NCBI GenBank assembly: GCA_965277805.1
Contig: OZ255842.1
Coordinates: forward strand, 2,080,001 to 2,144,000
Direction: 5' to 3'
From: Candidatus Lustribacter sp.
Lineage (GTDB): Bacteria; Vulcanimicrobiota; Vulcanimicrobiia; Vulcanimicrobiales; Vulcanimicrobiaceae
Length of the DNA: 64,000 bases
In this document: positions 13,601 through 27,458 of the stretch, piece after piece
How the letters are laid out: every line of letters begins with the position of its first letter
Position numbering within the stretch: the stretch's first letter is position 1
Notes under the pieces: generated by a model
What the model was told of the DNA's origin: nothing
Seen by the model: only the letters and a program-made list of their open reading frames with translations
Databases searched by the model: none
Position numbers and translations under genes: made by a program

Positions 13601-14809
13601 TTAATCCGTGCCGGTAATCGGCAGCAGGCCTTCGGGTCGAACGAACGACCGCAGCGGACGCCCTTCCGCCAGGGCCTTGAGCTCCGTGCTCCACAGCTTA
13701 CGCATCGCGATGATAGCGACGTCGGAACGTCCGAGGTGCTCGACGCCTTTGCGCCGGTCAGCGATGCGCCCCTGACCGGTTTGACAGACGTCGTCTTGCG
13801 CCATCGCAACATGGTGACAGAGCTGCGCCATGTCGTCGTAGCCGATGTCGCCGCGCAACACGGCCTGAGCTGCGACATGCGCCTCTTCCTCCGCGTTCGC
13901 AAACTGTTTCCAGCGCTCGGCGTATGCCGGATCGACCGTATCGCCATGAAGATGAACATTAATGAGACGCAATTCGAGGGTGCTTTCGTCGTCGATCGGC
14001 ACGCGATAGGCTAGGAAATCTTGCCAGGCAACCTCCGCCCGGTTCACTTTCTCCTCACCAGGCTTTTGAATATTGTCGGGATGGACAGTGAAGAGGCCGA
14101 TATTCGGCATGCCGAAAAGCACCTCGCGTTTGTGGCCATGGCGCGTGGCGATGCATTTCATGCCCCACGGGGTTTCCTCGGCCGCGATCTCGGGCAGCTG
14201 ATCGAAGTAGACTTTGGTGAACACCGATGTCCGGTGCGTGAACGCGAGATGGCCCTCGTCCATGAAGTTTTCCACGCACTGAAAGAAATTGCAAGCGCGC
14301 ACGCTCATGAGCGGCATGACGAGCTTTCCCCGCTCCCATTCGGGATACCGCGGAAACTCGGGCGGGTCGCCGCCGCCGAAGTACGCATAGATCAAACCGA
14401 GGTAATCGCGCGCGGGATAGCCGCCGATCTTGACGCGCTGCGCGTAGGTGCTGTCGGGCCCCTCGAGCGGCTGCTCGACGCATTGACCGTTCGCTTCGAA
14501 TTTCCAGCCATGGTACGGACATCGAATGCAGTCGCCTTCCACCCAGCCGGCGTTGAGTTGCGTTCCACGATGCGCGCAGGCTTGGTCGACACAGTGAATG
14601 TCGCCCGACTCGCCGCGGTAGAGCGCGTAGTTCTCACCCATGATGCGCAACGGACGCGCGCGCCCGGGCGCTACGCTCTCACTCAAAGCCACCGGATGCC
14701 AGAACGTGCGCATGTAGCGTCCCGCGATCGTACCGGGGCCGGTGTGGGCGAAATCGACGCCCTCGCCGGCGTCATTTACGGAGGCAGTTCCGGAGAGAGT
14801 GGTCGTCAT
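13601..14809 (-). CDS. Rieske non-heme iron oxygenase alpha subunit (phthalate 4,5-dioxygenase/LigXa-like), module 1
   Basis: CAHRG...CPYHG Rieske ligands; ENFMDEGHLAFTH iron site; TGPGTIAGRYMRTFWHPV. Confidence 0.92.
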   Translation of the reverse strand: MTTTLSGTASVNDAGEGVDFAHTGPGTIAGRYMRTFWHPVALSESVAPGRARPLRIMGENYALYRGESGDIHCVDQACAHRGTQLNAGWVEGDCIRCPYHGWKFEANGQCVEQPLEGPDSTYAQRVKIGGYPARDYLGLIYAYFGGGDPPEFPRYPEWERGKLVMPLMSVRACNFFQCVENFMDEGHLAFTHRTSVFTKVYFDQLPEIAAEETPWGMKCIATRHGHKREVLFGMPNIGLFTVHPDNIQKPGEEKVNRAEVAWQDFLAYRVPIDDESTLELRLINVHLHGDTVDPAYAERWKQFANAEEEAHVAAQAVLRGDIGYDDMAQLCHHVAMAQDDVCQTGQGRIADRRKGVEHLGRSDVAIIAMRKLWSTELKALAEGRPLRSFVRPEGLLPITGTD

Positions 14810-16412: not shown

Positions 16413-16435
16413 TAGCGCCTTCGCAGGTTCCTTTG

Positions 16436-16475
16436 TTTGAAGAATTTGTCTTTCAAGAATGTGTGTTTGAAGGTA
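16436..16475. promoter_or_regulatory. Candidate MarR operator in the divergent promoter
   Basis: TTTGAAGAAT/TTTCAAGAAT/TTTGAAGGTA at 15-bp spacing, forming TTGAA-N10-TTCAA and TTCAA-N10-TTGAA inverted repeats. Confidence 0.5.
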
Positions 16476-16525
16476 CTATGCATCTCGCGAGCCGAAACGT
16501 CAACCCTTCTCTAGGGGGTTATGCA

Positions 16526-17110
16526 GTGAAACCGCGGGACCACATCGACCTTGTGCGTAGGGCGGCGGGCATGCCGTCGTCCGACACGACGACGGTCGAA
16601 ATTACCAGCCGCCTTTTCCGGTTGTGCGCGCACTACGATCAACTCGTGTCGCCGCTCTACGCACGCCGCGGGCTGACGCGCGTCGAGCTGGATCTGCTTT
16701 GGGCGCTCGAACGCGCAGGCGATACGCCGCTGACGCCGACCAAGCTGGCGGCGCGGCAAATGTGCGCCTCGGGCACCCTCAGCAATCGCCTCGAAAAATT
16801 GGAGCGGCTGGGCCTGCTCACGCGTCAGGCGGATCCATCCGACCGGCGCGGCGTCCTGCTTGAGATCACCGAGCACGGCCGCACGATCGTCAACGAACTC
16901 AACGCGGCGCGCGAACGTATCGATGCACTTCTAATCCCCGGCCTGACCGTCGCGCAACGGCGCGCATTGGTGGACCTGCTGCGGACATCGCTCATTGCGG
17001 CCGAACAGATCGCGCAGCTGGAAACGGCGAGCGAGACGCCACCGTCCTCCGATGAAGAATCATCTGCACCGCAGCCAGCGCCGCTGCGCCGGACGCGTGC
17101 GGCCCGCTAA
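16526..17110 (+). CDS. MarR family regulator
   Basis: LTPTKLA, SGTLSNRLEKLERLGLLTRQADPSDRRGVLLEITEHG; GTG 16526 after AGGGGG. Confidence 0.9.
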   Translation: MKPRDHIDLVRRAAGMPSSDTTTVEITSRLFRLCAHYDQLVSPLYARRGLTRVELDLLWALERAGDTPLTPTKLAARQMCASGTLSNRLEKLERLGLLTRQADPSDRRGVLLEITEHGRTIVNELNAARERIDALLIPGLTVAQRRALVDLLRTSLIAAEQIAQLETASETPPSSDEESSAPQPAPLRRTRAAR

Positions 17111-17143: not shown

Positions 17144-17527
17144 ATGCAGGTTACCAAAGACGATGTCATGCAAGCCAGCAAAGGCATGCTACAGAAGCAA
17201 TTCTACGTCGTGTTCAGTACGCCGACGAATGGGATTGGTCCCGTGATGGAAAACCTCGAGGCACACCTCGCGCACCAATGCAAGATCGAGGCGGACGGAA
17301 TCATGGTGGCGGCCGGCCCGTACTGGACCGATGACGAGAAGCAATGGGAAGGCGAGGGCATGTTCGTCATTCGTGCGCGATCCCTCGCGCATGCGAAGGA
17401 ACTTGCGGCGAGCGACCCGATGCACAAATGCGGAGCGCGGTCGTTCGTCGTCCGGCCATGGATGGTGAATGAAGGCGGCCTCACTATCCGGCTCACGTTC
17501 TCGGACGGGAAATTCGTTCTTGAGTAA
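17144..17527 (+). CDS. YciI family protein, module 1
   Basis: HLAHQ, AAGP, GMFVIRA, SDPMHKCGARSF; AAGGAAAGG RBS. Confidence 0.85.
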   Translation: MQVTKDDVMQASKGMLQKQFYVVFSTPTNGIGPVMENLEAHLAHQCKIEADGIMVAAGPYWTDDEKQWEGEGMFVIRARSLAHAKELAASDPMHKCGARSFVVRPWMVNEGGLTIRLTFSDGKFVLE

Positions 17528-17573: not shown

Positions 17574-18764
17574 ATGCCGTCACTAGCGAAGCTCTCGGAG
17601 TCCACTCGCAACTCCGTTTTGACCCTGCCGGTCGACCTCCACGAGTCGAGCCCGTTCACGCGGCCCAAGAAGCCACTCAGCCAATCGCGGGTCGCGATCG
17701 TCACGACGGCCGGATTACACCGCCGCGACGACCGGCCGTTTACCGGCGGGGATCCGACCTTCCGAGCCATACCCTCAGGAACGCCGGCGTCAGAGATCGT
17801 GCAAAGCCACACCAGCATCGGGTTCGACCGGACCGCCGTGCTCGAGGACATCAACGTCGTTTTTCCGATCGAGCGGTTGCGCGAGATGCTTTCGGCGGGT
17901 CGCATCGGGGAGTTGGCGCCGACCTTCTATTCGTTCATGGGCGCGCAGCGTGACTGGTCACCGATCAGGGAGCGAACGGGACCCGAAGTTGCGAACCTGT
18001 TGGTCGGCGATGGTGTCGACGTCGTCTTACTTACACCAACTTGACCACTTTGCACGAACACGGTCAGTGTTCTCTCACGGGTCTTGGAAGAAAACGGGCT
18101 CACGACGGTCGCTTTGAGTCTGATCCGCGAACACACGGAAAAAGTGAAGCCTCCGCGCGCCGTGTACGTTCCCTTTCCGTTGGGTCTGCCGGTCGGTCAT
18201 CCCGGAAACGTTTCCGAACAGGAGGCCGTCTTGGACTTGGCATTTTCCACTCTCGATGCCGCCAGCGGCCCCGTGCTGCTCGACTATCGCGATGACTCGG
18301 CAGCCGAGGAGGCCGGCTCGCCGCTTCAGGCCTCCGACGTCGATGCGGACGAGCAGGCTCGGACGGCTGACTTCGCTACGGAAGTGACGTTGATGCGGCG
18401 CTATTGGGAGCAGCACGTCGCGGCGACCGGCCGCACCGGCGTCGGCTTATCGAACGTCCCGCCGCAGCGGTTCCGCGGCGTCGTGCGGTTTCTCGAAGCT
18501 CTTCTCACCGATCAAACGGCCGACTCGGACGAACGGCCGGCGGAGGTGCCGAGACCGCTGTTCATCCGGACGTGCCTCGAGGACCTACGCGTGATGTACA
18601 GTGAAGCGCGCTTGCAAACGCATCCACATGAGTCAAGTCAAGACCGGCAACGTTGGTTGCTCGGCTCGACCGCGCTCGGGCTCATGCTGCGCAGCCTGCG
18701 CGATACCTTCGACGCCTCGACCGATCCGCAGTTCAAAGCGCTCGCCTTCGGTATCGCGCGCTGA
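17574..18764 (+). CDS. GrdB/PrdB-like selenoprotein (396 aa, Sec157 in a UPLC motif, C-terminal extension)
   Basis: ORFs 17574..18044 and 18084..18764 are in one frame separated only by TGA 18042-18044; read-through gives VVLLTPT-U-PLCTNTVSVLSRVLEENGLTT, aligning with LVLLLPF-C-PACHRATGLVARALEARGLPT in the paralogue at 26580; RVAIVTTAG, GDPTFR, DINVVFPIERL, KPPR, PFPLG motifs. Confidence 0.85.
18056..18072 (+). promoter_or_regulatory. Candidate bacterial SECIS element
   Basis: GAACAC-GGTCA-GTGTTC: perfect 6-bp stem, 5-nt loop starting GG, beginning 11 nt after the in-frame UGA. Confidence 0.75.
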
Positions 18765-18768
18765 TTCG

Positions 18769-19152
18769 ATGGAAGAACAGGAGCGGTTCTCATCCTTACA
18801 CACATGGGCACGGCGCGCGGGAGACGTCGTGACGGTCGGTATCAGCGCCTACGCCGAACATCAATTGGGTGAGCTGCAATACGTCGGTCTACCGCGCGTC
18901 GGCTCTGCCGTTGTGAAAGACCAGTGCTTCGGTGAGGCTGAATCGACGAAGACCGTTTCCGACCTCTACGCTCCGTGCAGCGGCACCGTCGTTGCGGTCA
19001 ACTCCGAACTCATTGCCGATCCTGCGCTGGTCAATCGCGATCCGTATGGCGCGGGGTGGATAATACTGGTTGAGCCGTCGCAGCCCGGGGAATTCCACGA
19101 ATTGCTCGACCAGCCGGCGTACGACGCGTTCGTCGCCACGCAGGAGCATTGA
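18769..19152 (+). CDS. gcvH: Glycine cleavage H-type lipoyl carrier protein (standalone)
   Basis: VGISAYAEHQLG, AESTKTVSDLYAP (lipoyl Lys), VNRDPYGAGW. Confidence 0.9.
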   Translation: MEEQERFSSLHTWARRAGDVVTVGISAYAEHQLGELQYVGLPRVGSAVVKDQCFGEAESTKTVSDLYAPCSGTVVAVNSELIADPALVNRDPYGAGWIILVEPSQPGEFHELLDQPAYDAFVATQEH

Positions 19153-19197: not shown

Positions 19198-19501
19198 TTG
19201 TACCACGTGCTAAGATCCACATTCGTCTCTTCCAGTCTGAGCCTAACGGCAGCGGCGGAATTGCCGCTGCCGGTAGGCGCCCAATCTGTCGCGTTCGCTC
19301 CAGATGCCACCCGAAGCCGTCGGGCAGAGGTGGTTACGACAATGAACCTTGCGCGCCCGGGCGTTTCGCAGGCGTGGATCCCCTTGCCGTCAGTGAGCGC
19401 CCTAGCCGTTCTTGATGTATCCTCAAGCCGTGAACGCGGGCATCGCCTGCGACTGCCTCGATCCAAAGGCTGTCGCTTATTCGATCACGGTAACGGCCTA
19501 G
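19198..19501 (+). pseudogene. Remnant of a transglutaminase-like exported protein (both ends only)
   Basis: AQSVAFAP...EVVTTMNL...SQAWIPLPSV, then in another frame PFLMYPQAVNAG...DCLDPKAVAYSIT* (19406-19501); family recognised from memory. Confidence 0.5.
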
Positions 19502-19544
19502 TTTCTCTCTTCGAAGGCGACGCGACGTTCCCGAGGTACTCAAC

Positions 19545-20516
19545 ATGTCCGCTGCAATCCATTCGCTCGATCACTTTAGCTTCGCCGTCCCTGACGTAGC
19601 CGCCGCGGCTGCGTTCTACGAACGCTTCGGCCTCGATGTCCGCTCGGAAGGTACGGGTTTCACGCTGCGCGCGAGCGGCAGCGATCACGTTTGGGGTCGC
19701 ATTTACGAAGGCCCGCGAAAAGCCATCGGTTACCTCTCGTTCGGCGCGTACGAGCACGATATGCCGCAACTGCGCAAGCAAGTCGCCGGATGCGGAGTGG
19801 CGTTACTGCCGGCTCCGAAACGTGCCGTCGACGATGGCGGGGTGTGGTTCGAGGATCCGGACGGGACACTAATAGAGATTCGCGTCGGTCCGAAGGTCTC
19901 GCCTGACGTAAAAGCTGCGCTGAGCGCGACGTTTGCCCCGCCCGATGTCGCTGGTGCGCCCATGCGCTCCGACGCCAAGACGGTGCGGCCCGACCGTCTT
20001 TCGCACGTGCTCGTGTTCACGAGCGATGTCTCGCGCGCGATCGACTTTTATCGCGAGACCGTTGGCATGCAGCTCTCCGATCGGGCTCGGGACGGCATCG
20101 GGTTCATGCACGGCGCACACGGCAGCGACCATCACCTCGTCGCATTCGCGAAATCTGACGCTCGCGGATTTCATCATTGCAGTTGGAACGTAGCTTCGGT
20201 GAGCGATGTCGGCCTAGGTGCGATGCAAATGGCCGATGCGGGATACACTCGCGGGTGGGGAATGGGGCGGCACGTACTCGGGTCAAACTATTTTGACTAC
20301 ATCCGCGACCCGTGGGGAAGCTACTCCGAATATTCCTACGATATCGATTTCGTCACTCCGGGAGCGGTTGCGAAAGGCACGTGGAAAGCGACCGACGCAT
20401 CGCCCGAAAATGGCTTCTACTTGTGGGGGCCGTTGCCACCTGACGATTTCGCCTTTAATTACGAGTCGCCGTCGGCCGAATTACAACGGGACCTCGTCGC
20501 AAGCGAACCGCGGTAA
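19545..20516 (+). CDS. Two-domain VOC protein, extradiol dioxygenase-like
   Basis: HSLDHF, RLSHVL, SDHHLVAF, HHCSW, GMGRHVLGSNYFDYIRDPWGSYSEY. Confidence 0.9.
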   Translation: MSAAIHSLDHFSFAVPDVAAAAAFYERFGLDVRSEGTGFTLRASGSDHVWGRIYEGPRKAIGYLSFGAYEHDMPQLRKQVAGCGVALLPAPKRAVDDGGVWFEDPDGTLIEIRVGPKVSPDVKAALSATFAPPDVAGAPMRSDAKTVRPDRLSHVLVFTSDVSRAIDFYRETVGMQLSDRARDGIGFMHGAHGSDHHLVAFAKSDARGFHHCSWNVASVSDVGLGAMQMADAGYTRGWGMGRHVLGSNYFDYIRDPWGSYSEYSYDIDFVTPGAVAKGTWKATDASPENGFYLWGPLPPDDFAFNYESPSAELQRDLVASEPR

Positions 20517-23599: not shown

Positions 23600-24607
23600 A
23601 TGACTGATTCCGGCACATTTTCGCTTGCCAAAGCCCGCGCATTGCTTTCGCGCGCCGTAGCAAAATGCGAGGCCTTTGGGCAATCCGGCACCTTCGTCGT
23701 CGTCGACGCCTCGGGCGCTCCGGTGAGCGTGGCGCGTATGGACGGCTGCGCCCCCTCGGCGCTGCCGCTGGTTCGTGCGAAGGCGTTCGCCACCGCCGCG
23801 AACGGCGAGCCGAGCGCGCTCTTCGCCGCACGCATGGAGAAGTTCGGTCCCCACACGTTTGCGAGCTATCAGGCCGTTCTGCGCGACCAGCCGTTTCCGG
23901 GCGCCGGCGGTGTACCGGTGCGGGAGAACGGGAGGATCGTCGGAGCGATTGCGACCGGCCTGCGCATCGGGCCGTTCGTCAAGTTGCCCGGCATCTCGCC
24001 GTCGCAACTGATCGCCGACGGCAAGCCGGGCAATCTCGAGGATACGATCATCAGCTACGCGCTCGGCGTACCGTACAATCCGCAGCACGGCGATGACGCT
24101 GCGCGCTGGACCGAAGCCTATGGCGCGCCGCCGGACCCGGCGGAAAAAGGAACGGCCATGGACCCGGTTCCGGAAGCGAGCGCGCAACCCGAACTCGCGC
24201 GCGCGCGCGCAATTGCCGATCGCGTGATCGCGCGCGCCACGGAAAAGGGCGCGCGCGTGGCCGTTGCGGTTGTCGATGCGGCCGGCGATGCCGTCACGCT
24301 CGATCGCATGGACGGCGCGCCGCCGATGGGGGTCGACGTCGCCGCAGCCACCGCGACCGCCGCCGTCAATTTTGGCATGGCGTCGGGGGCGATCGCAGCC
24401 GACCGCCACTATTCGAGCGTTCTCGACAGCGTGCTCACAACCGTCCCATACCGGATGCTGACGTTGCCCGGCGGATGTCCGATTCGCAGCGGAACGGCGG
24501 TGCTCGCTGCCATCGGTGTGTATTGTCATGATCTCGACCTCGCCGCCGAGCTTGCGCAGAGTGCGGCGGATTGGGTCTTACCGCAATTCGAAGGAAGTGG
24601 TCAATGA
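23600..24607 (+). CDS. Tandem GlcG/HbpS-domain protein, module 2
   Basis: VVVDASG...RMDG...AKA, then VVDAAG...RMDGA; shares IISYAxG...YxPQHGDD linker with the 14806 gene. Confidence 0.8.
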   Translation: MTDSGTFSLAKARALLSRAVAKCEAFGQSGTFVVVDASGAPVSVARMDGCAPSALPLVRAKAFATAANGEPSALFAARMEKFGPHTFASYQAVLRDQPFPGAGGVPVRENGRIVGAIATGLRIGPFVKLPGISPSQLIADGKPGNLEDTIISYALGVPYNPQHGDDAARWTEAYGAPPDPAEKGTAMDPVPEASAQPELARARAIADRVIARATEKGARVAVAVVDAAGDAVTLDRMDGAPPMGVDVAAATATAAVNFGMASGAIAADRHYSSVLDSVLTTVPYRMLTLPGGCPIRSGTAVLAAIGVYCHDLDLAAELAQSAADWVLPQFEGSGQ

Positions 24608-25809
24608 TAGAACAGGATCGCATCGACATCGACATCGCTCCGCTCACCGATCCTGGCACGGTCGACTATGTCCACACCGGCCCCGGCACCTTGGCCGGCA
24701 CCTACTTACGGCGCTTTTGGCACCCCGTCTATTGCAGCCGTAACCTCGAGCCCGGCTTCGCTAAGCCGCTGACGATCATGAGCCAGAAATTGGCGCTGTA
24801 CCGCAGCCAGGAAGGCCAGGTCCACTGCGTCGACAACCGCTGTGCGCATCGCGGCGCGATGCTCAGCACGGGCTGGGTCGAGGGCGACGTCATCCGCTGC
24901 CCCTATCATGGCTGGGCGTACGGGGCCGATGGCAGGTGCGTGGAGCAGCCGATGGAACGAGCGACATTCGCCAAGCATATTCGCATCGGCGGCTACCCGA
25001 CGCAAGAATATCTCGGCTTCATCTGGCTCTATCTCGGCAACGGCGAACCGCCCCCGTTTATACGCTATCCCGAATGGGAGAATGCGCCCTTCGTTTCCGC
25101 TCAGATCGACACGCGGCCATGCAATTGGTTTCAGAACATCGAGAACTATCAAGACGAAGCTCACGTTTGGTTCACGCACAAGCGCTCCGCGCTCGAAGGC
25201 CTCGATCTGAACCATCTGCCGCAGCTCTCGTGTGAGAAAACGCCCTGGGGCTTGCGTATGATCGCAAAGAAACAGGACGGCAACGACCGCATCGTGCAGT
25301 TCGGTATGCCCAACATCTGCATGTTCGCCGTGCATCCGGACAACATTAAACGCCAGGGCGAAGAACGCAACGCCGACGAGACAGCGTGGCAGATGTTCCT
25401 CGACTACCGGGTGCCGGTGGACGATTTCTCGCATCTGCAAGTGCACTGTATCGCGACGTTCATGAACGGGACGCCCAGCGAAGAGTACAAGAAGCGCTGG
25501 AAAGACTTCGCGAACGCCGAAGCCGAGGCCCACGAGGTCGCGCAGAAAGTGCTGCGCGGCGAACTCCAGTACGATAGGATCGCCGAAATATGCCACCACG
25601 TGCCACTTGCGCAAGACGAAGTTGTGCAAGTGGGCCAGGGCGTCATTGCGGATCGCCGGCGCGGCATCGAAAATCTGGGCTCGACGGACGTCGGCGTCGT
25701 CGCGATCCGGCGACTGTATACGCAGGAGCTCACGGCGCTGGCCGAAGGCCGGCCGCTCGGGAATTTCGAGCGGCCGGAGGGACTGTTGCCCAAAGGCGGC
25801 GGCGACTAA
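24604..25809 (+). CDS. Rieske non-heme iron oxygenase alpha subunit, module 2
   Basis: CAHRG...CPYHG; ENYQDEAHVWFTH; paralogue of 13601 (VHPDNI, FANAExEAH, CHHV..AQD). Confidence 0.92.
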   Translation: MIEQDRIDIDIAPLTDPGTVDYVHTGPGTLAGTYLRRFWHPVYCSRNLEPGFAKPLTIMSQKLALYRSQEGQVHCVDNRCAHRGAMLSTGWVEGDVIRCPYHGWAYGADGRCVEQPMERATFAKHIRIGGYPTQEYLGFIWLYLGNGEPPPFIRYPEWENAPFVSAQIDTRPCNWFQNIENYQDEAHVWFTHKRSALEGLDLNHLPQLSCEKTPWGLRMIAKKQDGNDRIVQFGMPNICMFAVHPDNIKRQGEERNADETAWQMFLDYRVPVDDFSHLQVHCIATFMNGTPSEEYKKRWKDFANAEAEAHEVAQKVLRGELQYDRIAEICHHVPLAQDEVVQVGQGVIADRRRGIENLGSTDVGVVAIRRLYTQELTALAEGRPLGNFERPEGLLPKGGGD

Positions 25810-26192
25810 TGCCGGTTTCCAAAGAGGACATCCTTGAAGCCGGTAAAGGCATGCTGCAAAAGCAGTATTACGTCGTCTTCAGCACGCCGACGAACGGTAT
25901 CGGTCCCGTGATGGAAAATCTCGAGGCGCACCTCGCGCATCAATGTAAGATCGAGGCCGACGGCATTATGGTGGCGGCCGGACCGCACTGGACGGATGAC
26001 GAGACGCAGTGGGAGGGCGACGGGATGTTCGTCATCCGCGCACGGGACCTCGTGCACGCAAAGGAGCTTGCGGCGAGCGATCCGATGCACAAATGCGGAG
26101 CGCGGTCGTTCAAAGTCCGCCCGTGGCTGGTGTGCGAAGGCGGCTTTACCATACGGATCACGTTTTCGGACGGCAAATTCGCACTCGAGTAA
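25809..26192 (+). CDS. YciI family protein, module 2
   Basis: 127 aa, 108/127 identical to 17144..17527 by manual count; TAATG coupling. Confidence 0.88.
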   Translation: MPVSKEDILEAGKGMLQKQYYVVFSTPTNGIGPVMENLEAHLAHQCKIEADGIMVAAGPHWTDDETQWEGDGMFVIRARDLVHAKELAASDPMHKCGARSFKVRPWLVCEGGFTIRITFSDGKFALE

Positions 26193-26223: not shown

Positions 26224-26577
26224 ATGCTCTACCTCAGAATGTGTTTTGACAGTCCCGGTAAGGAACAGCTCCGCGATGCCACGCGGTCGGAGCACCGCGC
26301 CTACCTCGTCCCATTTCTGGCCCCCGGCGGGGACGTCCACATCGTTCAGGCCGGTCCCATGTGCGGCAGCGATGAGAGCGATCAGAACGTGGGCAGCTTT
26401 TTCGTCGTCGAAGCCACGTCGATAAAGGCGGTCGAGGCCTTTCACGCCGGCGATCCGTTCACGCAAAAAGGCGTGTTCGGAAACGCGACGGTCGTGCGGT
26501 GGGATCGGCACATCGACAGTAGCAGCGAATCGCACGCGACGTTCGCCGCACAAAACGCCCGGCCGGCTGTCGGATAA
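26224..26577 (+). CDS. YciI family protein (divergent)
   Basis: RSEHRAYL, QAGP, GSFFVVEA, GDPF. Confidence 0.85.
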   Translation: MLYLRMCFDSPGKEQLRDATRSEHRAYLVPFLAPGGDVHIVQAGPMCGSDESDQNVGSFFVVEATSIKAVEAFHAGDPFTQKGVFGNATVVRWDRHIDSSSESHATFAAQNARPAVG

Positions 26578-26579
26578 CG

Positions 26580-27458
26580 ATGCCGTACAGCTTCTCCCGC
26601 TTTCTGGCCGAACTGGGGCGATCGATTCCGATGCCCGAATTCGATCCGCCCACGCTCGTGCCGTTGCGCAAGCCCATCGCCGAGTCGACAATCGGGATGT
26701 TCGTCAGCTGCGGCGCGCAACTGCCCGAAGACCCGCCGCTGCTCGAGACGGAAGACATCACGTTCCGGTTGTTGCCACGCGACGTCCCGACCGATCGACT
26801 AGTCATTTCGCATCAAACGCTGGTACGGAAGTGGGCGGTAGAAGACCTGAACGTCGCATACCCGATCGACCGCATGAAGGAGCTGGAACGTGAGGGAACG
26901 TTCAAGCGGCTCGCGCACACAAACGTCTCAATGGTCGGTTCGATCGAGCGCTATACCGAATTGATGGAACAGACAGTGCCGCGGATGAAGGCCGTCTTTG
27001 ACTCGCAAGGTGTCGACCTCGTCTTGTTGCTGCCGTTCTGCCCCGCATGTCATCGGGCGACGGGCCTCGTCGCTCGGGCGTTGGAGGCCCGCGGGCTGCC
27101 GACCATTAGCACGAGCGTGCTGTGGGAAATGAGCGCTGCCGTCAAGCCGCCGCGCACGTGCTTCCTAGATTTTCCGCTAGGTTGCCCGGCCGGCAAGCCG
27201 CACGAAGTAGCGCAGCAGCGCGACATTCTCCGTCAAACGCTGCAACTCGCACCGGAGTTCGACGCCGACAGCTGGGCGATGAAGTCGCTGCCGTTTCAAT
27301 GGGATGCCGACGGAAGTCGCGACTGGGAGCGCGCGACAGAAGACCTCTACCGAAACGGTGGAATCAAGATTACCGATCGGCACATGGCGGCGCACGCAAA
27401 CGTCGGCGAGTCGTTACTTGGCAACGAGCGCGCCTTCGCAGTCAAATGTAACTGTTAA
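26580..27458 (+). CDS. GrdB/PrdB-like protein, cysteine form (CPAC), ending in CNC
   Basis: DLNVAYPIDRMKEL, GVDLVLLLPFCPACH, LEARGLPT, VKPPR, FPLGCPAGKP. Confidence 0.85.
   Translation: MPYSFSRFLAELGRSIPMPEFDPPTLVPLRKPIAESTIGMFVSCGAQLPEDPPLLETEDITFRLLPRDVPTDRLVISHQTLVRKWAVEDLNVAYPIDRMKELEREGTFKRLAHTNVSMVGSIERYTELMEQTVPRMKAVFDSQGVDLVLLLPFCPACHRATGLVARALEARGLPTISTSVLWEMSAAVKPPRTCFLDFPLGCPAGKPHEVAQQRDILRQTLQLAPEFDADSWAMKSLPFQWDADGSRDWERATEDLYRNGGIKITDRHMAAHANVGESLLGNERAFAVKCNC

What the first reader, a model, noticed from the sequence alone, without database searches (positions are those of the whole stretch)
18769..19152. Standalone lipoyl carrier (GcvH) 4 nt after the selenoprotein: candidate dithiol reductant
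Seen: gcvH with an intact lipoyl Lys follows the Sec gene directly; no gcvP, gcvT or lpd is in the window. The Cys copy has no gcvH but ends in C-N-C. Known: D-proline reductase can be driven by dithiols in vitro, and GcvH-like proteins act as redox/sulfur carriers elsewhere (LbpA of the sHdr system). Inference: dihydrolipoyl-GcvH recycles the UxxC centre in place of GrdA/thioredoxin.
Basis: partly seen in the sequence, partly recalled or inferred. Interest (0 to 1): 0.75.

Follow-up and report, generated by a model that had tools for sequence, protein, structure and literature searches.

The report
Selenoprotein paired with dedicated lipoyl carrier
A second, altered copy of the lipoic-acid carrier protein GcvH sits directly behind an uncharacterised selenium enzyme, and the same pair recurs on about two dozen environmental DNA fragments, so it is probably the enzyme's own redox partner and gives a way to test what this long-orphan enzyme family does.

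Summary
Window 18769-19152 encodes a 127-aa GcvH-fold protein with its lipoyl lysine (K61). It starts 4 nt after a 396-aa PrdB-like selenoprotein (17574-18764, UGA at 18042, motif U-P-L-C). It is not the cell's glycine-cleavage H protein: the canonical gcvT-gcvH and gcvP lie 3.1 Mb away, and the two H proteins are 42% identical.

The pairing is not general. I found no GcvH beside the selenoprotein's relatives in 34 of 34 loci from other genomes, nor beside the 6 same-genus orthologues.

The window GcvH does belong to a distinct subfamily of about 58 metagenomic clusters (52-89% identity).
- One member was read directly and overlaps the stop codon of a 74%-identical selenoprotein (GTGA).
- All 30 aligned members lack both acidic residues that hold the aminomethyl group in E. 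coli GcvH.
- All 30 carry a new invariant Cys nine residues after the lipoyl lysine.

Best reading (about 0.5): NADH -> Lpd -> lipoyl-GcvH2 -> U-x-x-C selenoprotein. This direction of electron flow is inferred, and the substrate is unknown. I found no report of the pairing in the searchable literature.

The parts
16433..17110 (+). MarR-family regulator, first gene of the same-strand run
   Evidence: Pfam MarR_2 44.6 bits and MarR 43.8 bits. Not conserved beside relatives.
17144..17527 (+). YciI-like protein, 46 nt upstream of the selenoprotein gene
   Evidence: Pfam YCII 33 bits. A second YciI gene (26224-26577) directly precedes the Cys-type PrdB-like copy. Absent upstream in L258.
17574..18764 (+). 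396-aa PrdB-like selenoprotein: PrdB-like domain (about residues 20-225) plus a helical C-terminal domain of about 170 aa. Sec157 is encoded by TGA 18042-18044, motif U-P-L-C.
   Evidence: TGA conserved in 29 of 29 homologues. AlphaFold model pLDDT 90.3, pTM 0.90. SelA is present in the genome.
18056..18072 (+). SECIS-like hairpin (6-bp stem, 5-nt loop) starting 12 nt after the UGA
   Evidence: The stem is present in 12 of 12 aligned homologues, with one pair showing compensatory change in 2 sequences. The single-sequence z-score is not significant, and the stem overlaps conserved codons.
18769..19152 (+). GcvH2: 127-aa lipoyl carrier of a distinct GcvH subfamily, with lipoyl K61 (18949-18951) and subfamily-invariant C70 (18976-18978)
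26580..27458 (+). Cys-type PrdB-like paralogue (292 aa, C-P-A-C, ends K-C-N-C). Comparison copy named in the finding, not part of the module.
   Evidence: Two more near-identical copies elsewhere in the genome also end K-C-N-C.

Best explanation
The two genes form a conserved module. The PrdB-like selenoprotein is a reductase whose Sec157/Cys160 pair becomes a selenosulfide on each turnover. GcvH2 is a lipoylated carrier descended from the glycine-cleavage H protein, and it has lost the pocket that holds the aminomethyl intermediate. Its dihydrolipoyl arm, possibly helped by the new Cys70, re-reduces the selenosulfide. GcvH2 is in turn reduced by the housekeeping dihydrolipoamide dehydrogenase with NADH, giving NADH -> Lpd -> lipoyl-GcvH2 -> U-x-x-C -> substrate.

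Shown: gene structure, paralogy, conserved linkage, and the residue changes. Inferred: lipoylation of GcvH2, physical contact between the two proteins, and the direction of electron flow. Unknown: the substrate.
For: 1. Second copy: the genome has 2 GCV_H hits. The other follows gcvT directly and gcvP lies 5 kb further on. The two copies are 42% identical.

2. Distinct subfamily: about 58 clusters are 52-89% identical to GcvH2, whereas every H protein in 40 relatives is at most 49% identical. In 347 other genomes of the family the best profile score is 146.8 bits, against 219.5 for the window.

3. Linkage read directly: in L258 a 74%-identical selenoprotein is followed by a 60%-identical GcvH2 whose GTG start overlaps the TGA stop.

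4. Linkage inferred: 22 of the 58 GcvH2-type clusters share their exact longest-contig length with a selenoprotein C-terminal fragment. Twelve of these contigs are 13.4 kb or shorter and six are 3.5 kb or shorter. All 22 fragments are at least 65% identical to the window's. None of the roughly 67 listed fragments at 64% or below matches. The method is validated by the 7800-nt contig of L258.

5. [quoted passage not shown] The profile alignment to the E. coli chain puts L and T at those positions, and 0 of 30 subfamily members have an acidic residue at either.

6. Retained and gained residues: K61 is invariant and Cys70 is invariant in 30 of 30. The four canonical sequences aligned have L, A, V, V at that position.

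7. Machinery exists elsewhere in the genome: a LipB/LplA-type gene next to an Lpd-like gene at C1:5281784-5282800.

8. Precedent: lipoylated proteins reduce Ohr (PMC5962072, passages), and NADH -> Lpd -> DlaT -> AhpD -> AhpC is described in PMC12028322 (passages). I recall, without a call to support it, that EC 1.21.4.1 D-proline reductase (dithiol) is written with dihydrolipoate as donor.
Against: - Most of the selenoprotein family has no GcvH nearby: 0 of 34 genome-contig loci within up to 4 kb, and 0 of 6 same-genus full-length orthologues or the genome's own second Sec copy. A dedicated lipoyl carrier is therefore not a family requirement.
- No Lpd, lipoyl ligase or other electron-input gene lies in the module.
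- GcvH2 and six other subfamily members still score above NCBIfam's GcvH equivalog cut-offs, so residual glycine-cleavage function is not excluded.
- One canonical-looking H protein (P0082) also has E-H-T-W.
- 22 of the 23 linked pairs rest on matching contig lengths, not on sequence I could read. On the six Mb-scale or >250-kb contigs this shows only the same replicon.
- No binding, expression or redox data exist.
- No fused form was found, which is weak evidence.
Confidence: 0.5

Rival explanations
1. GcvH2 is a group carrier, not the reductant. Like GrdA in glycine reductase, its dithiol arm (or Cys70) accepts a substrate-derived fragment from the selenoprotein and passes it on.
For: GrdB-type proteins work with a small carrier protein in glycine reductase (PMC13188914, passages). 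The linkage is tight and the genes are translationally coupled. The new invariant Cys lies beside the arm's exit path, 3 residues after the Tyr-70 equivalent (PMC7733448 passages).
Against: No GrdC/GrdD-like or other downstream acceptor gene is conserved. The genes after GcvH2 differ between the window (dioxygenase-like) and L258 (phosphoesterase). The pocket that protects a carried aminomethyl group is lost.
Confidence: 0.13
2. Electron flow is the reverse. The selenoprotein acts on GcvH2, reducing or repairing its lipoyl arm, for example after oxidation or adduct formation.
For: The U-x-x-C sits after a strand at a helix N-terminus, as in thioredoxin or glutaredoxin. There is a weak glutaredoxin match at residues 137-191, E 0.08. 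The linkage data do not give a direction.
Against: The selenoprotein would then need its own reductant, and none is encoded nearby. The B-type relatives exist without any dedicated GcvH.
Confidence: 0.1
3. GcvH2 is a sulfur or selenium carrier, like LbpA of the sHdr sulfur-oxidation system, and the pair handles a sulfur- or selenium-containing compound.
For: LbpA shows that GcvH-like lipoyl proteins have been recruited to non-glycine roles with dedicated partners (PMC6067878, abstract and passages). GcvH2 has an extra invariant Cys.
Against: No Hdr-like, DsrE-like or dedicated lipoate-ligase genes were found among the window ORFs scanned or in L258. GcvH2 scores as GcvH proper.
Confidence: 0.08
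4. GcvH2 is a spare H protein for glycine cleavage or lipoyl relay, and the linkage is hitch-hiking without functional coupling.
For: It scores above the GcvH equivalog cut-offs. The pair is absent from all 347 other species representatives of the family, so it may be a recently transferred block.
Against: The linkage persists while GcvH2 diverges from 89% to 56% and the selenoprotein from 90% to 65% identity. The start and stop codons overlap in L258. Both aminomethyl-locking acids are lost in 30 of 30. A canonical gcvH is already present beside gcvT.
Confidence: 0.1

Closest known systems
D-proline reductase PrdA/PrdB of Clostridium/Acetoanaerobium sticklandii (NCBIfam TIGR04483; EC 1.21.4.1, 'dithiol')
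   Same: Homologous Sec domain with U-x-x-C. The clostridial enzyme is driven by dithiols in vitro (recalled, no call).
   Different: The score of 146.8 is below the cut-off of 300. The protein is 396 aa rather than about 240, with an extra helical C-terminal domain. No PrdA/GrdE-type pyruvoyl subunit was found, though that search had no positive control. The host is a soil-type bacterium with many oxygenases in the window.
Environmental stand-alone 'proline reductase PrdB' selenoproteins (Zhang, Fomenko & Gladyshev 2005, PMC1088965; Zhang & Gladyshev 2008, PMC2398784; tables and passages read)
   Same: pfam07355, U-x-x-C, abundant in aerobic environments, function unknown. The window protein is a member.
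   Different: Those surveys list no partner. Here one clade has a dedicated GcvH-type neighbour.
Lipoyl-protein-driven thiol reductase chains: NADH -> Lpd -> DlaT -> AhpD -> AhpC (PMC12028322, passages) and Ohr reduced by lipoylated proteins (PMC5962072, passages)
   Same: A protein-bound dihydrolipoyl arm reduces a redox-active dithiol centre and is recycled by Lpd. This is the mechanism proposed here.
   Different: Those systems borrow E2 subunits of central metabolism. Here the carrier is a dedicated, diverged GcvH and the acceptor is a selenoprotein of another fold.
LbpA, the GcvH-like lipoate-binding protein of the sHdr sulfur-oxidation system (PMC6067878, abstract and passages)
   Same: A GcvH-fold lipoyl protein recruited away from glycine cleavage and genetically tied to its partner enzyme.
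   Different: No hdr genes and no dedicated ligase are present here. GcvH2 is much closer to true GcvH and scores above its cut-offs.
Canonical glycine-cleavage H protein (E. coli GcvH, PDB 3A7A/3A8I)
   Same: Same fold and length, same lipoyl-lysine hairpin; profile E-value 5e-40.
   Different: Glu-12 and Glu-14 are replaced by L and T, and V73 by Cys. It is not next to gcvT or gcvP.

Membership tests
GcvH (glycine cleavage system H protein, TIGR00527/NF002270/PF01597) | Scores above the curated HMM cut-offs | tested here: met
   NF002270 134.1 against 117; TIGR00527 116.4 against 115.85, only just over; PF01597 119.4 against 22.2. Six other subfamily members score 127-152 bits.
GcvH (glycine cleavage system H protein, TIGR00527/NF002270/PF01597) | Lipoyl-lysine in the E-S-x-K hairpin | tested here: met
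   K61 in A-E-S-T-K, invariant in 34 of 34 aligned sequences. Lipoylation itself was not tested.
GcvH (glycine cleavage system H protein, TIGR00527/NF002270/PF01597) | Acidic residues (E. coli Glu-12, Glu-14) that lock the aminomethyl-lipoyl arm in its cavity | tested here: not met
   L10 and T12 occupy these positions. 0 of 30 subfamily members are acidic at either position. The role of these residues is taken from PMC7733448 (passages).
GcvH (glycine cleavage system H protein, TIGR00527/NF002270/PF01597) | Encoded with, or as the sole partner of, gcvT and gcvP | tested here: not met
   gcvT-gcvH and gcvP lie at C1:5.218-5.226 Mb. The window copy is an extra one.
D-proline reductase PrdB (TIGR04483) | Score above the equivalog cut-off (300 bits) | tested here: not met
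   146.8 bits.
D-proline reductase PrdB (TIGR04483) | Sec in a U-x-x-C motif at the conserved site | tested here: met
   U157-P-L-C160. TGA conserved in 29 of 29 homologues.
D-proline reductase PrdB (TIGR04483) | Pyruvoyl partner subunit PrdA (PF09338 family) in the genome | tested here: inconclusive
   No PF09338 match in the genome, but the same search matched none of the 14 control genomes.
Environmental stand-alone PrdB-like selenoproteins (pfam07355, U-x-x-C) | PF07355 match ending at the Sec, about 400 aa, no Grd/Prd partners | tested here: met
   PF07355 residues 22-156 match profile positions 210-347 of 347. 34 homologous loci at 45-61% identity with variable neighbours.
LbpA (sHdr-associated lipoate-binding protein) | Linkage to hdr-like genes and dedicated lipoate-protein ligases | tested here: not met
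   None among the window ORFs scanned or in L258. The only LipB/LplA-type gene is at C1:5281784.

The most novel reading that the evidence does not exclude
A clade of the long-orphan PrdB-like selenoproteins, together with a purpose-built lipoyl carrier (GcvH2) and housekeeping Lpd, forms an NADH-driven reductase that depends on both selenium and lipoate. It works in aerobic soil bacteria without any pyruvoyl subunit. GcvH2's third thiol (Cys70) forms the transient selenosulfide or disulfide relay to Sec157. This would be the first physiological reductant assigned to any member of the family.
Probability: 0.3. Interest if true: 0.8.

Novelty: new variant of a known kind. Interest (0 to 1): 0.62.

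Why it matters
Stand-alone PrdB-like selenoproteins have ranked among the most abundant environmental selenoprotein families since 2005 (PMC1088965, PMC2398784). The surveys I read assign them no partner, reductant or substrate.

A co-inherited lipoyl carrier gives one clade a defined electron-input chain that can be rebuilt from purified parts: NADH, Lpd, lipoylated GcvH2 and the selenoprotein. That turns the search for a substrate into a simple NADH-oxidation assay.

It also adds a third case, after LbpA and the Ohr/AhpD systems, of lipoyl proteins serving as dedicated redox partners outside 2-oxoacid and glycine metabolism. And it flags a group of proteins that are currently annotated as ordinary "GcvH".

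Tried and rejected
**Complex prediction.** I stopped that step, so there is no result on binding.

**Expression.** The look-up of sequencing runs listed no RNA holder.

**Fold of the selenoprotein.**
- Foldseek against PDB gave nothing at E <= 0.001.
- VIA-align wide gave only generic Rossmann-like matches, Z <= 8.5, over residues 33-247.
- The PDB sequence profile gave only glutaredoxin at E 0.08.
- The C-terminal domain was not searched on its own.

**Fused forms.** None were found among proteins of 224-2000 aa, which is weak evidence.

**Subfamily in genome collections.**
- Genome contigs with P0002 and with the subfamily profile: best hits 54% and 52% identity, all canonical-looking.
- 400 genomes of the phylum: best 52%.
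- 347 other genomes of the family: none.

**Canonical operons.** L259 and L260 (54% and 52% identical) are ordinary gcvT-gcvH-gcvPA-gcvPB operons.

**Biotin/lipoate-ligase gene.** The family gene 4 kb from the genome's second Sec copy is BirA, and I judged it irrelevant.

**Composition.** GC content around the pair is unremarkable.

**Signals.** The promoter and terminator scan gave nothing useful.

**Lost analyses.** The script machine was lost. No ML tree, co-phylogeny, GC3 comparison or tblastn of loci L164-L243 could be done.

**Literature.** Searches found no paper linking PrdB/GrdB-type selenoproteins with GcvH or lipoyl proteins. Subscription journals are not covered, and supplements were not opened.

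Full report
**What is at the coordinates**

The ORF at 18769-19152 (+) encodes 127 aa. It begins 4 nt (TTCG) after the TGA stop (18762-18764) of the upstream gene.
- It matches Pfam GCV_H at 119.4 bits over residues 7-123.
- It passes NCBIfam's GcvH cut-offs: NF002270 134.1 against 117, and TIGR00527 116.4 against 115.85.
- The lipoyl lysine is K61 in A-E-S-T-K-T-V-S-D.
- An AlphaFold model built on 30 subfamily sequences has pLDDT 92.9.
- The subfamily profile hits solved GcvH structures at E 5e-40.

The upstream gene (17574-18764) reads through one TGA (18042-18044) to give 396 aa with T-P-T-U-P-L-C-T.
- Its first 225 residues or so are PrdB-like: TIGR04483 146.8 bits (cut-off 300), and PF07355 ending exactly at the Sec.
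- The rest is a confidently modelled helical domain. The whole model has pLDDT 90.3 and pTM 0.90.
- The TGA is conserved in 29 of 29 full-length homologues.
- A 6-bp hairpin 12 nt downstream is present in 12 of 12 aligned homologues.
- The genome encodes SelA.

**It is a second, non-canonical H protein**

The 5.53-Mb genome has two GCV_H matches. The other sits directly after gcvT, with the only GDC-P match 5 kb further on. The three Lpd-type matches and the only LipB/LplA-type gene are also far from the window. The two H proteins are 42% identical. So is the remark on the Cys copy: 26580-27458 has C-P-A-C and ends K-C-N-C, as do two near-identical paralogues elsewhere in the genome.

**Is the adjacency conserved? 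At first sight, no**
- 34 loci from other species' genomes encode 45-61% identical selenoproteins (Rokubacteria/Methylomirabilota, Binatia, Terriglobia, Dehalococcoidia, Acidimicrobiia). None has a GcvH within up to 4 kb, and their neighbours vary.
- Six of seven same-genus genomes have a 57-64% identical Sec orthologue, and the genome itself has a second Sec copy at 58%. None of them shares MarR, YciI, GcvH or the dioxygenase with the window.
- None of 109 GcvH loci examined has a PrdB-like neighbour.
- Among 40 relatives, 37 have a GcvH. Each has a single gene, at most 49% identical to the window copy.

These counts include the unpublished genomes G015 and G036 and G337, G258 and G431. They count only as negatives for GcvH2, except that G015 also has a weak PrdB-like hit.

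**A hidden subfamily changes the picture**

In the 5.8-billion-protein collection the window GcvH has closer relatives. About 58 clusters (P0003-P0061, leaving out the window's own P0005) are 52-89% identical. One of them is named by NCBI as coming from a Candidatus Aquilonibacter MAG (Vulcanimicrobiota).

Thirty of these align with 69% mean column identity and share a signature:
- x-H-[T/A/M/V/C]-W-A-R near the N-terminus;
- L-G-E-L-Q-Y-V-G-L-P;
- E-S-x-K-T;
- an invariant Cys in Y-A-P-C-S-G.

The subfamily was not found in the species-representative genomes searched: 80 best loci twice, 400 genomes of the phylum, and 347 other genomes of the family.

**Linkage in the subfamily**

The single subfamily hit in the metagenome contig collection, L258, could be read directly.
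- It holds a selenoprotein 74% identical to the window's, with the same T-P-T-U-P-L-C-T motif.
- A GcvH2 that is 60% identical follows it.
- The GcvH2 start codon GTG overlaps the selenoprotein's TGA stop as GTGA.

To reach further contexts I searched with the selenoprotein's C-terminal ORF, the fragment that gene callers report. I then compared the "longest contig" lengths of its hits with those of the GcvH hits.
- 22 GcvH2 clusters share an exact contig length with a selenoprotein fragment. Examples are 1480, 1789, 1797, 2653, 2844, 3493, 4973, 5632, 10358, 11163, 11817, 13439 ... 152958, 378558, 3864772 and 4633546.
- All 22 fragments are at least 65% identical to the window's.
- None of the roughly 67 listed fragments at 64% or below matches any of the 120 listed GcvH hits.
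- L258 validates the approach: its 7800-nt contig appears in both lists (P0141, and P0248 in P0047's cluster).
- On the six contigs of 3.5 kb or less the two genes must be neighbours. On the Mb-scale contigs the match shows only the same replicon.
- Identities fall together: GcvH2 from 89% to 56%, and the selenoprotein from 90% to 65%.

So a sub-clade of the selenoprotein family ("A-type") is co-inherited with GcvH2. The larger remainder ("B-type"), including this genome's second Sec copy, has no such neighbour.

**What the sequence says about function**

PMC7733448 (passages read) describes how the E. coli H protein locks the aminomethyl-lipoyl arm in a cavity by charged hydrogen bonds to Glu-12 and Glu-14. 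On release the arm passes Ser-67, Asp-68 and Tyr-70. The profile alignment to the E. coli chain places L and T at positions 12 and 14.
- In the 30 subfamily sequences neither position is ever acidic.
- The four canonical sequences aligned each keep at least one acid there. One of them, P0082, has E-H-T-W.
- Ser, Asp and Tyr are kept.
- The residue three after the Tyr, V73 in E. coli, is the invariant Cys70.

GcvH2 has therefore kept the arm and its hairpin, lost the feature specific to carrying an aminomethyl group, and gained a thiol near the arm's exit. This fits a dithiol/disulfide carrier better than a glycine-cleavage shuttle. However, GcvH2 still passes the GcvH HMM cut-offs, so some residual canonical function is not excluded.

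**Mechanism proposed**

NADH -> Lpd -> lipoyl-GcvH2 -> Sec157/Cys160 of the selenoprotein -> unknown substrate.

Precedents for a protein-bound dihydrolipoyl arm reducing a dithiol centre are Ohr (PMC5962072, passages) and Lpd-DlaT-AhpD-AhpC (PMC12028322, passages). LbpA shows that GcvH-like proteins can be dedicated to non-glycine partners (PMC6067878, abstract and passages). I recall, without a call to support it, that the EC entry for D-proline reductase (dithiol) names dihydrolipoate as donor.

Which steps are shown and which are inferred:
- Shown: the paralogy, the linkage and the residue changes.
- Inferred: lipoylation of GcvH2, contact between the proteins, and the direction of electron flow.
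- Unknown: the substrate.

The surroundings give only a loose hint about the substrate. The window holds three Rieske oxygenases, extradiol-dioxygenase-like genes, many solute-binding proteins, and a YciI gene before both the Sec and the Cys PrdB-like genes. Apart from an NMT1-type binding protein at 35% identity, these neighbours are not shared with L258.

**Limits**
- No RNA data were listed.
- The script machine was lost, so no tree or co-phylogeny was built.
- The tool that returns contigs for a given protein is closed.
- The selenoprotein has no informative structural neighbour.

**Known or new**

The selenoprotein family has been catalogued since 2005 (PMC1088965 and PMC2398784, tables and passages). 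A 2026 review lists only grdA-grdB and prdB-prdC as operon partners (PMC13188914, passages). Four searches found no paper that links this family to GcvH or lipoyl proteins.

Earlier notes of this scan describe the family as standing alone (for example e1-2372918). One note on a Burkholderiales genome mentions an orphan GcvH beside PrdB-like selenoproteins (e1-2832421). I did not check that note.

I rate this a new variant of a known kind, namely a lipoyl-protein-fed thiol/selenol reductase. It is confined to a small clade, but it makes the family's biochemistry testable.

Noticed in passing
window 17144-17527 and 26224-26577 (also 25590-26192): A YciI-like gene directly precedes both the Sec-type and the Cys-type PrdB-like genes in this window. 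The ORF before the second YciI has a weak YciI-like match. A Rieske oxygenase lies near each set (13601-14809, 24571-25809). This may be a recurring YciI/PrdB-like unit in this genome. It is not seen upstream in L258.
   Followed up: partly
window 26580-27458; L005 1453-2331; L007 1072-1950 (-): Three near-identical 292-aa Cys-type PrdB-like paralogues (C-P-A-C at the Sec site) all end in K-C-N-C. This could be a mobile C-terminal dithiol that replaces an external reductant.
   Followed up: partly
G000:C1:3856659-3857819 (-), locus L358 7657-8820: A second 396-aa Sec-type copy, 58% identical to the window's, has no GcvH nearby. It sits among housekeeping genes (enolase, BirA, Nnr-type, MFS transporters).
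   Followed up: yes
window 18769-19152: The protein collection holds a 107-aa version of this gene from the same 5,533,281-bp contig (P0005), so its source called a later start. The 127-aa start is supported because the conserved H-T-W-A-R block lies upstream of the shorter start and aligns with all relatives.
   Followed up: partly
L258 1452-1455: In the metagenome relative the GcvH2 start codon GTG overlaps the selenoprotein's TGA stop (GTGA), a translational-coupling arrangement. In the window the two genes are separated by 4 nt and have no obvious Shine-Dalgarno sequence.
   Followed up: yes
window 19198-19599 and 19545-20516: After GcvH2 come an ORF with no family match and a two-domain glyoxalase/extradiol-dioxygenase-like gene (weak HpaD and catechol 2,3-dioxygenase matches). 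L258 has a PF04185 phosphoesterase at this position instead. Both loci then have an NMT1-type binding protein on the opposite strand (35% identical).
   Followed up: partly
window 1-64000: The window reads as a catabolic region. It holds three Rieske oxygenases (one VanA-like), TauD, a luciferase-like monooxygenase, FAA hydrolase, an amidohydrolase, a sulfatase, two Vgb-lyase-like beta-propeller proteins, and at least eight solute-binding proteins, four of them NMT1-type.
   Followed up: no
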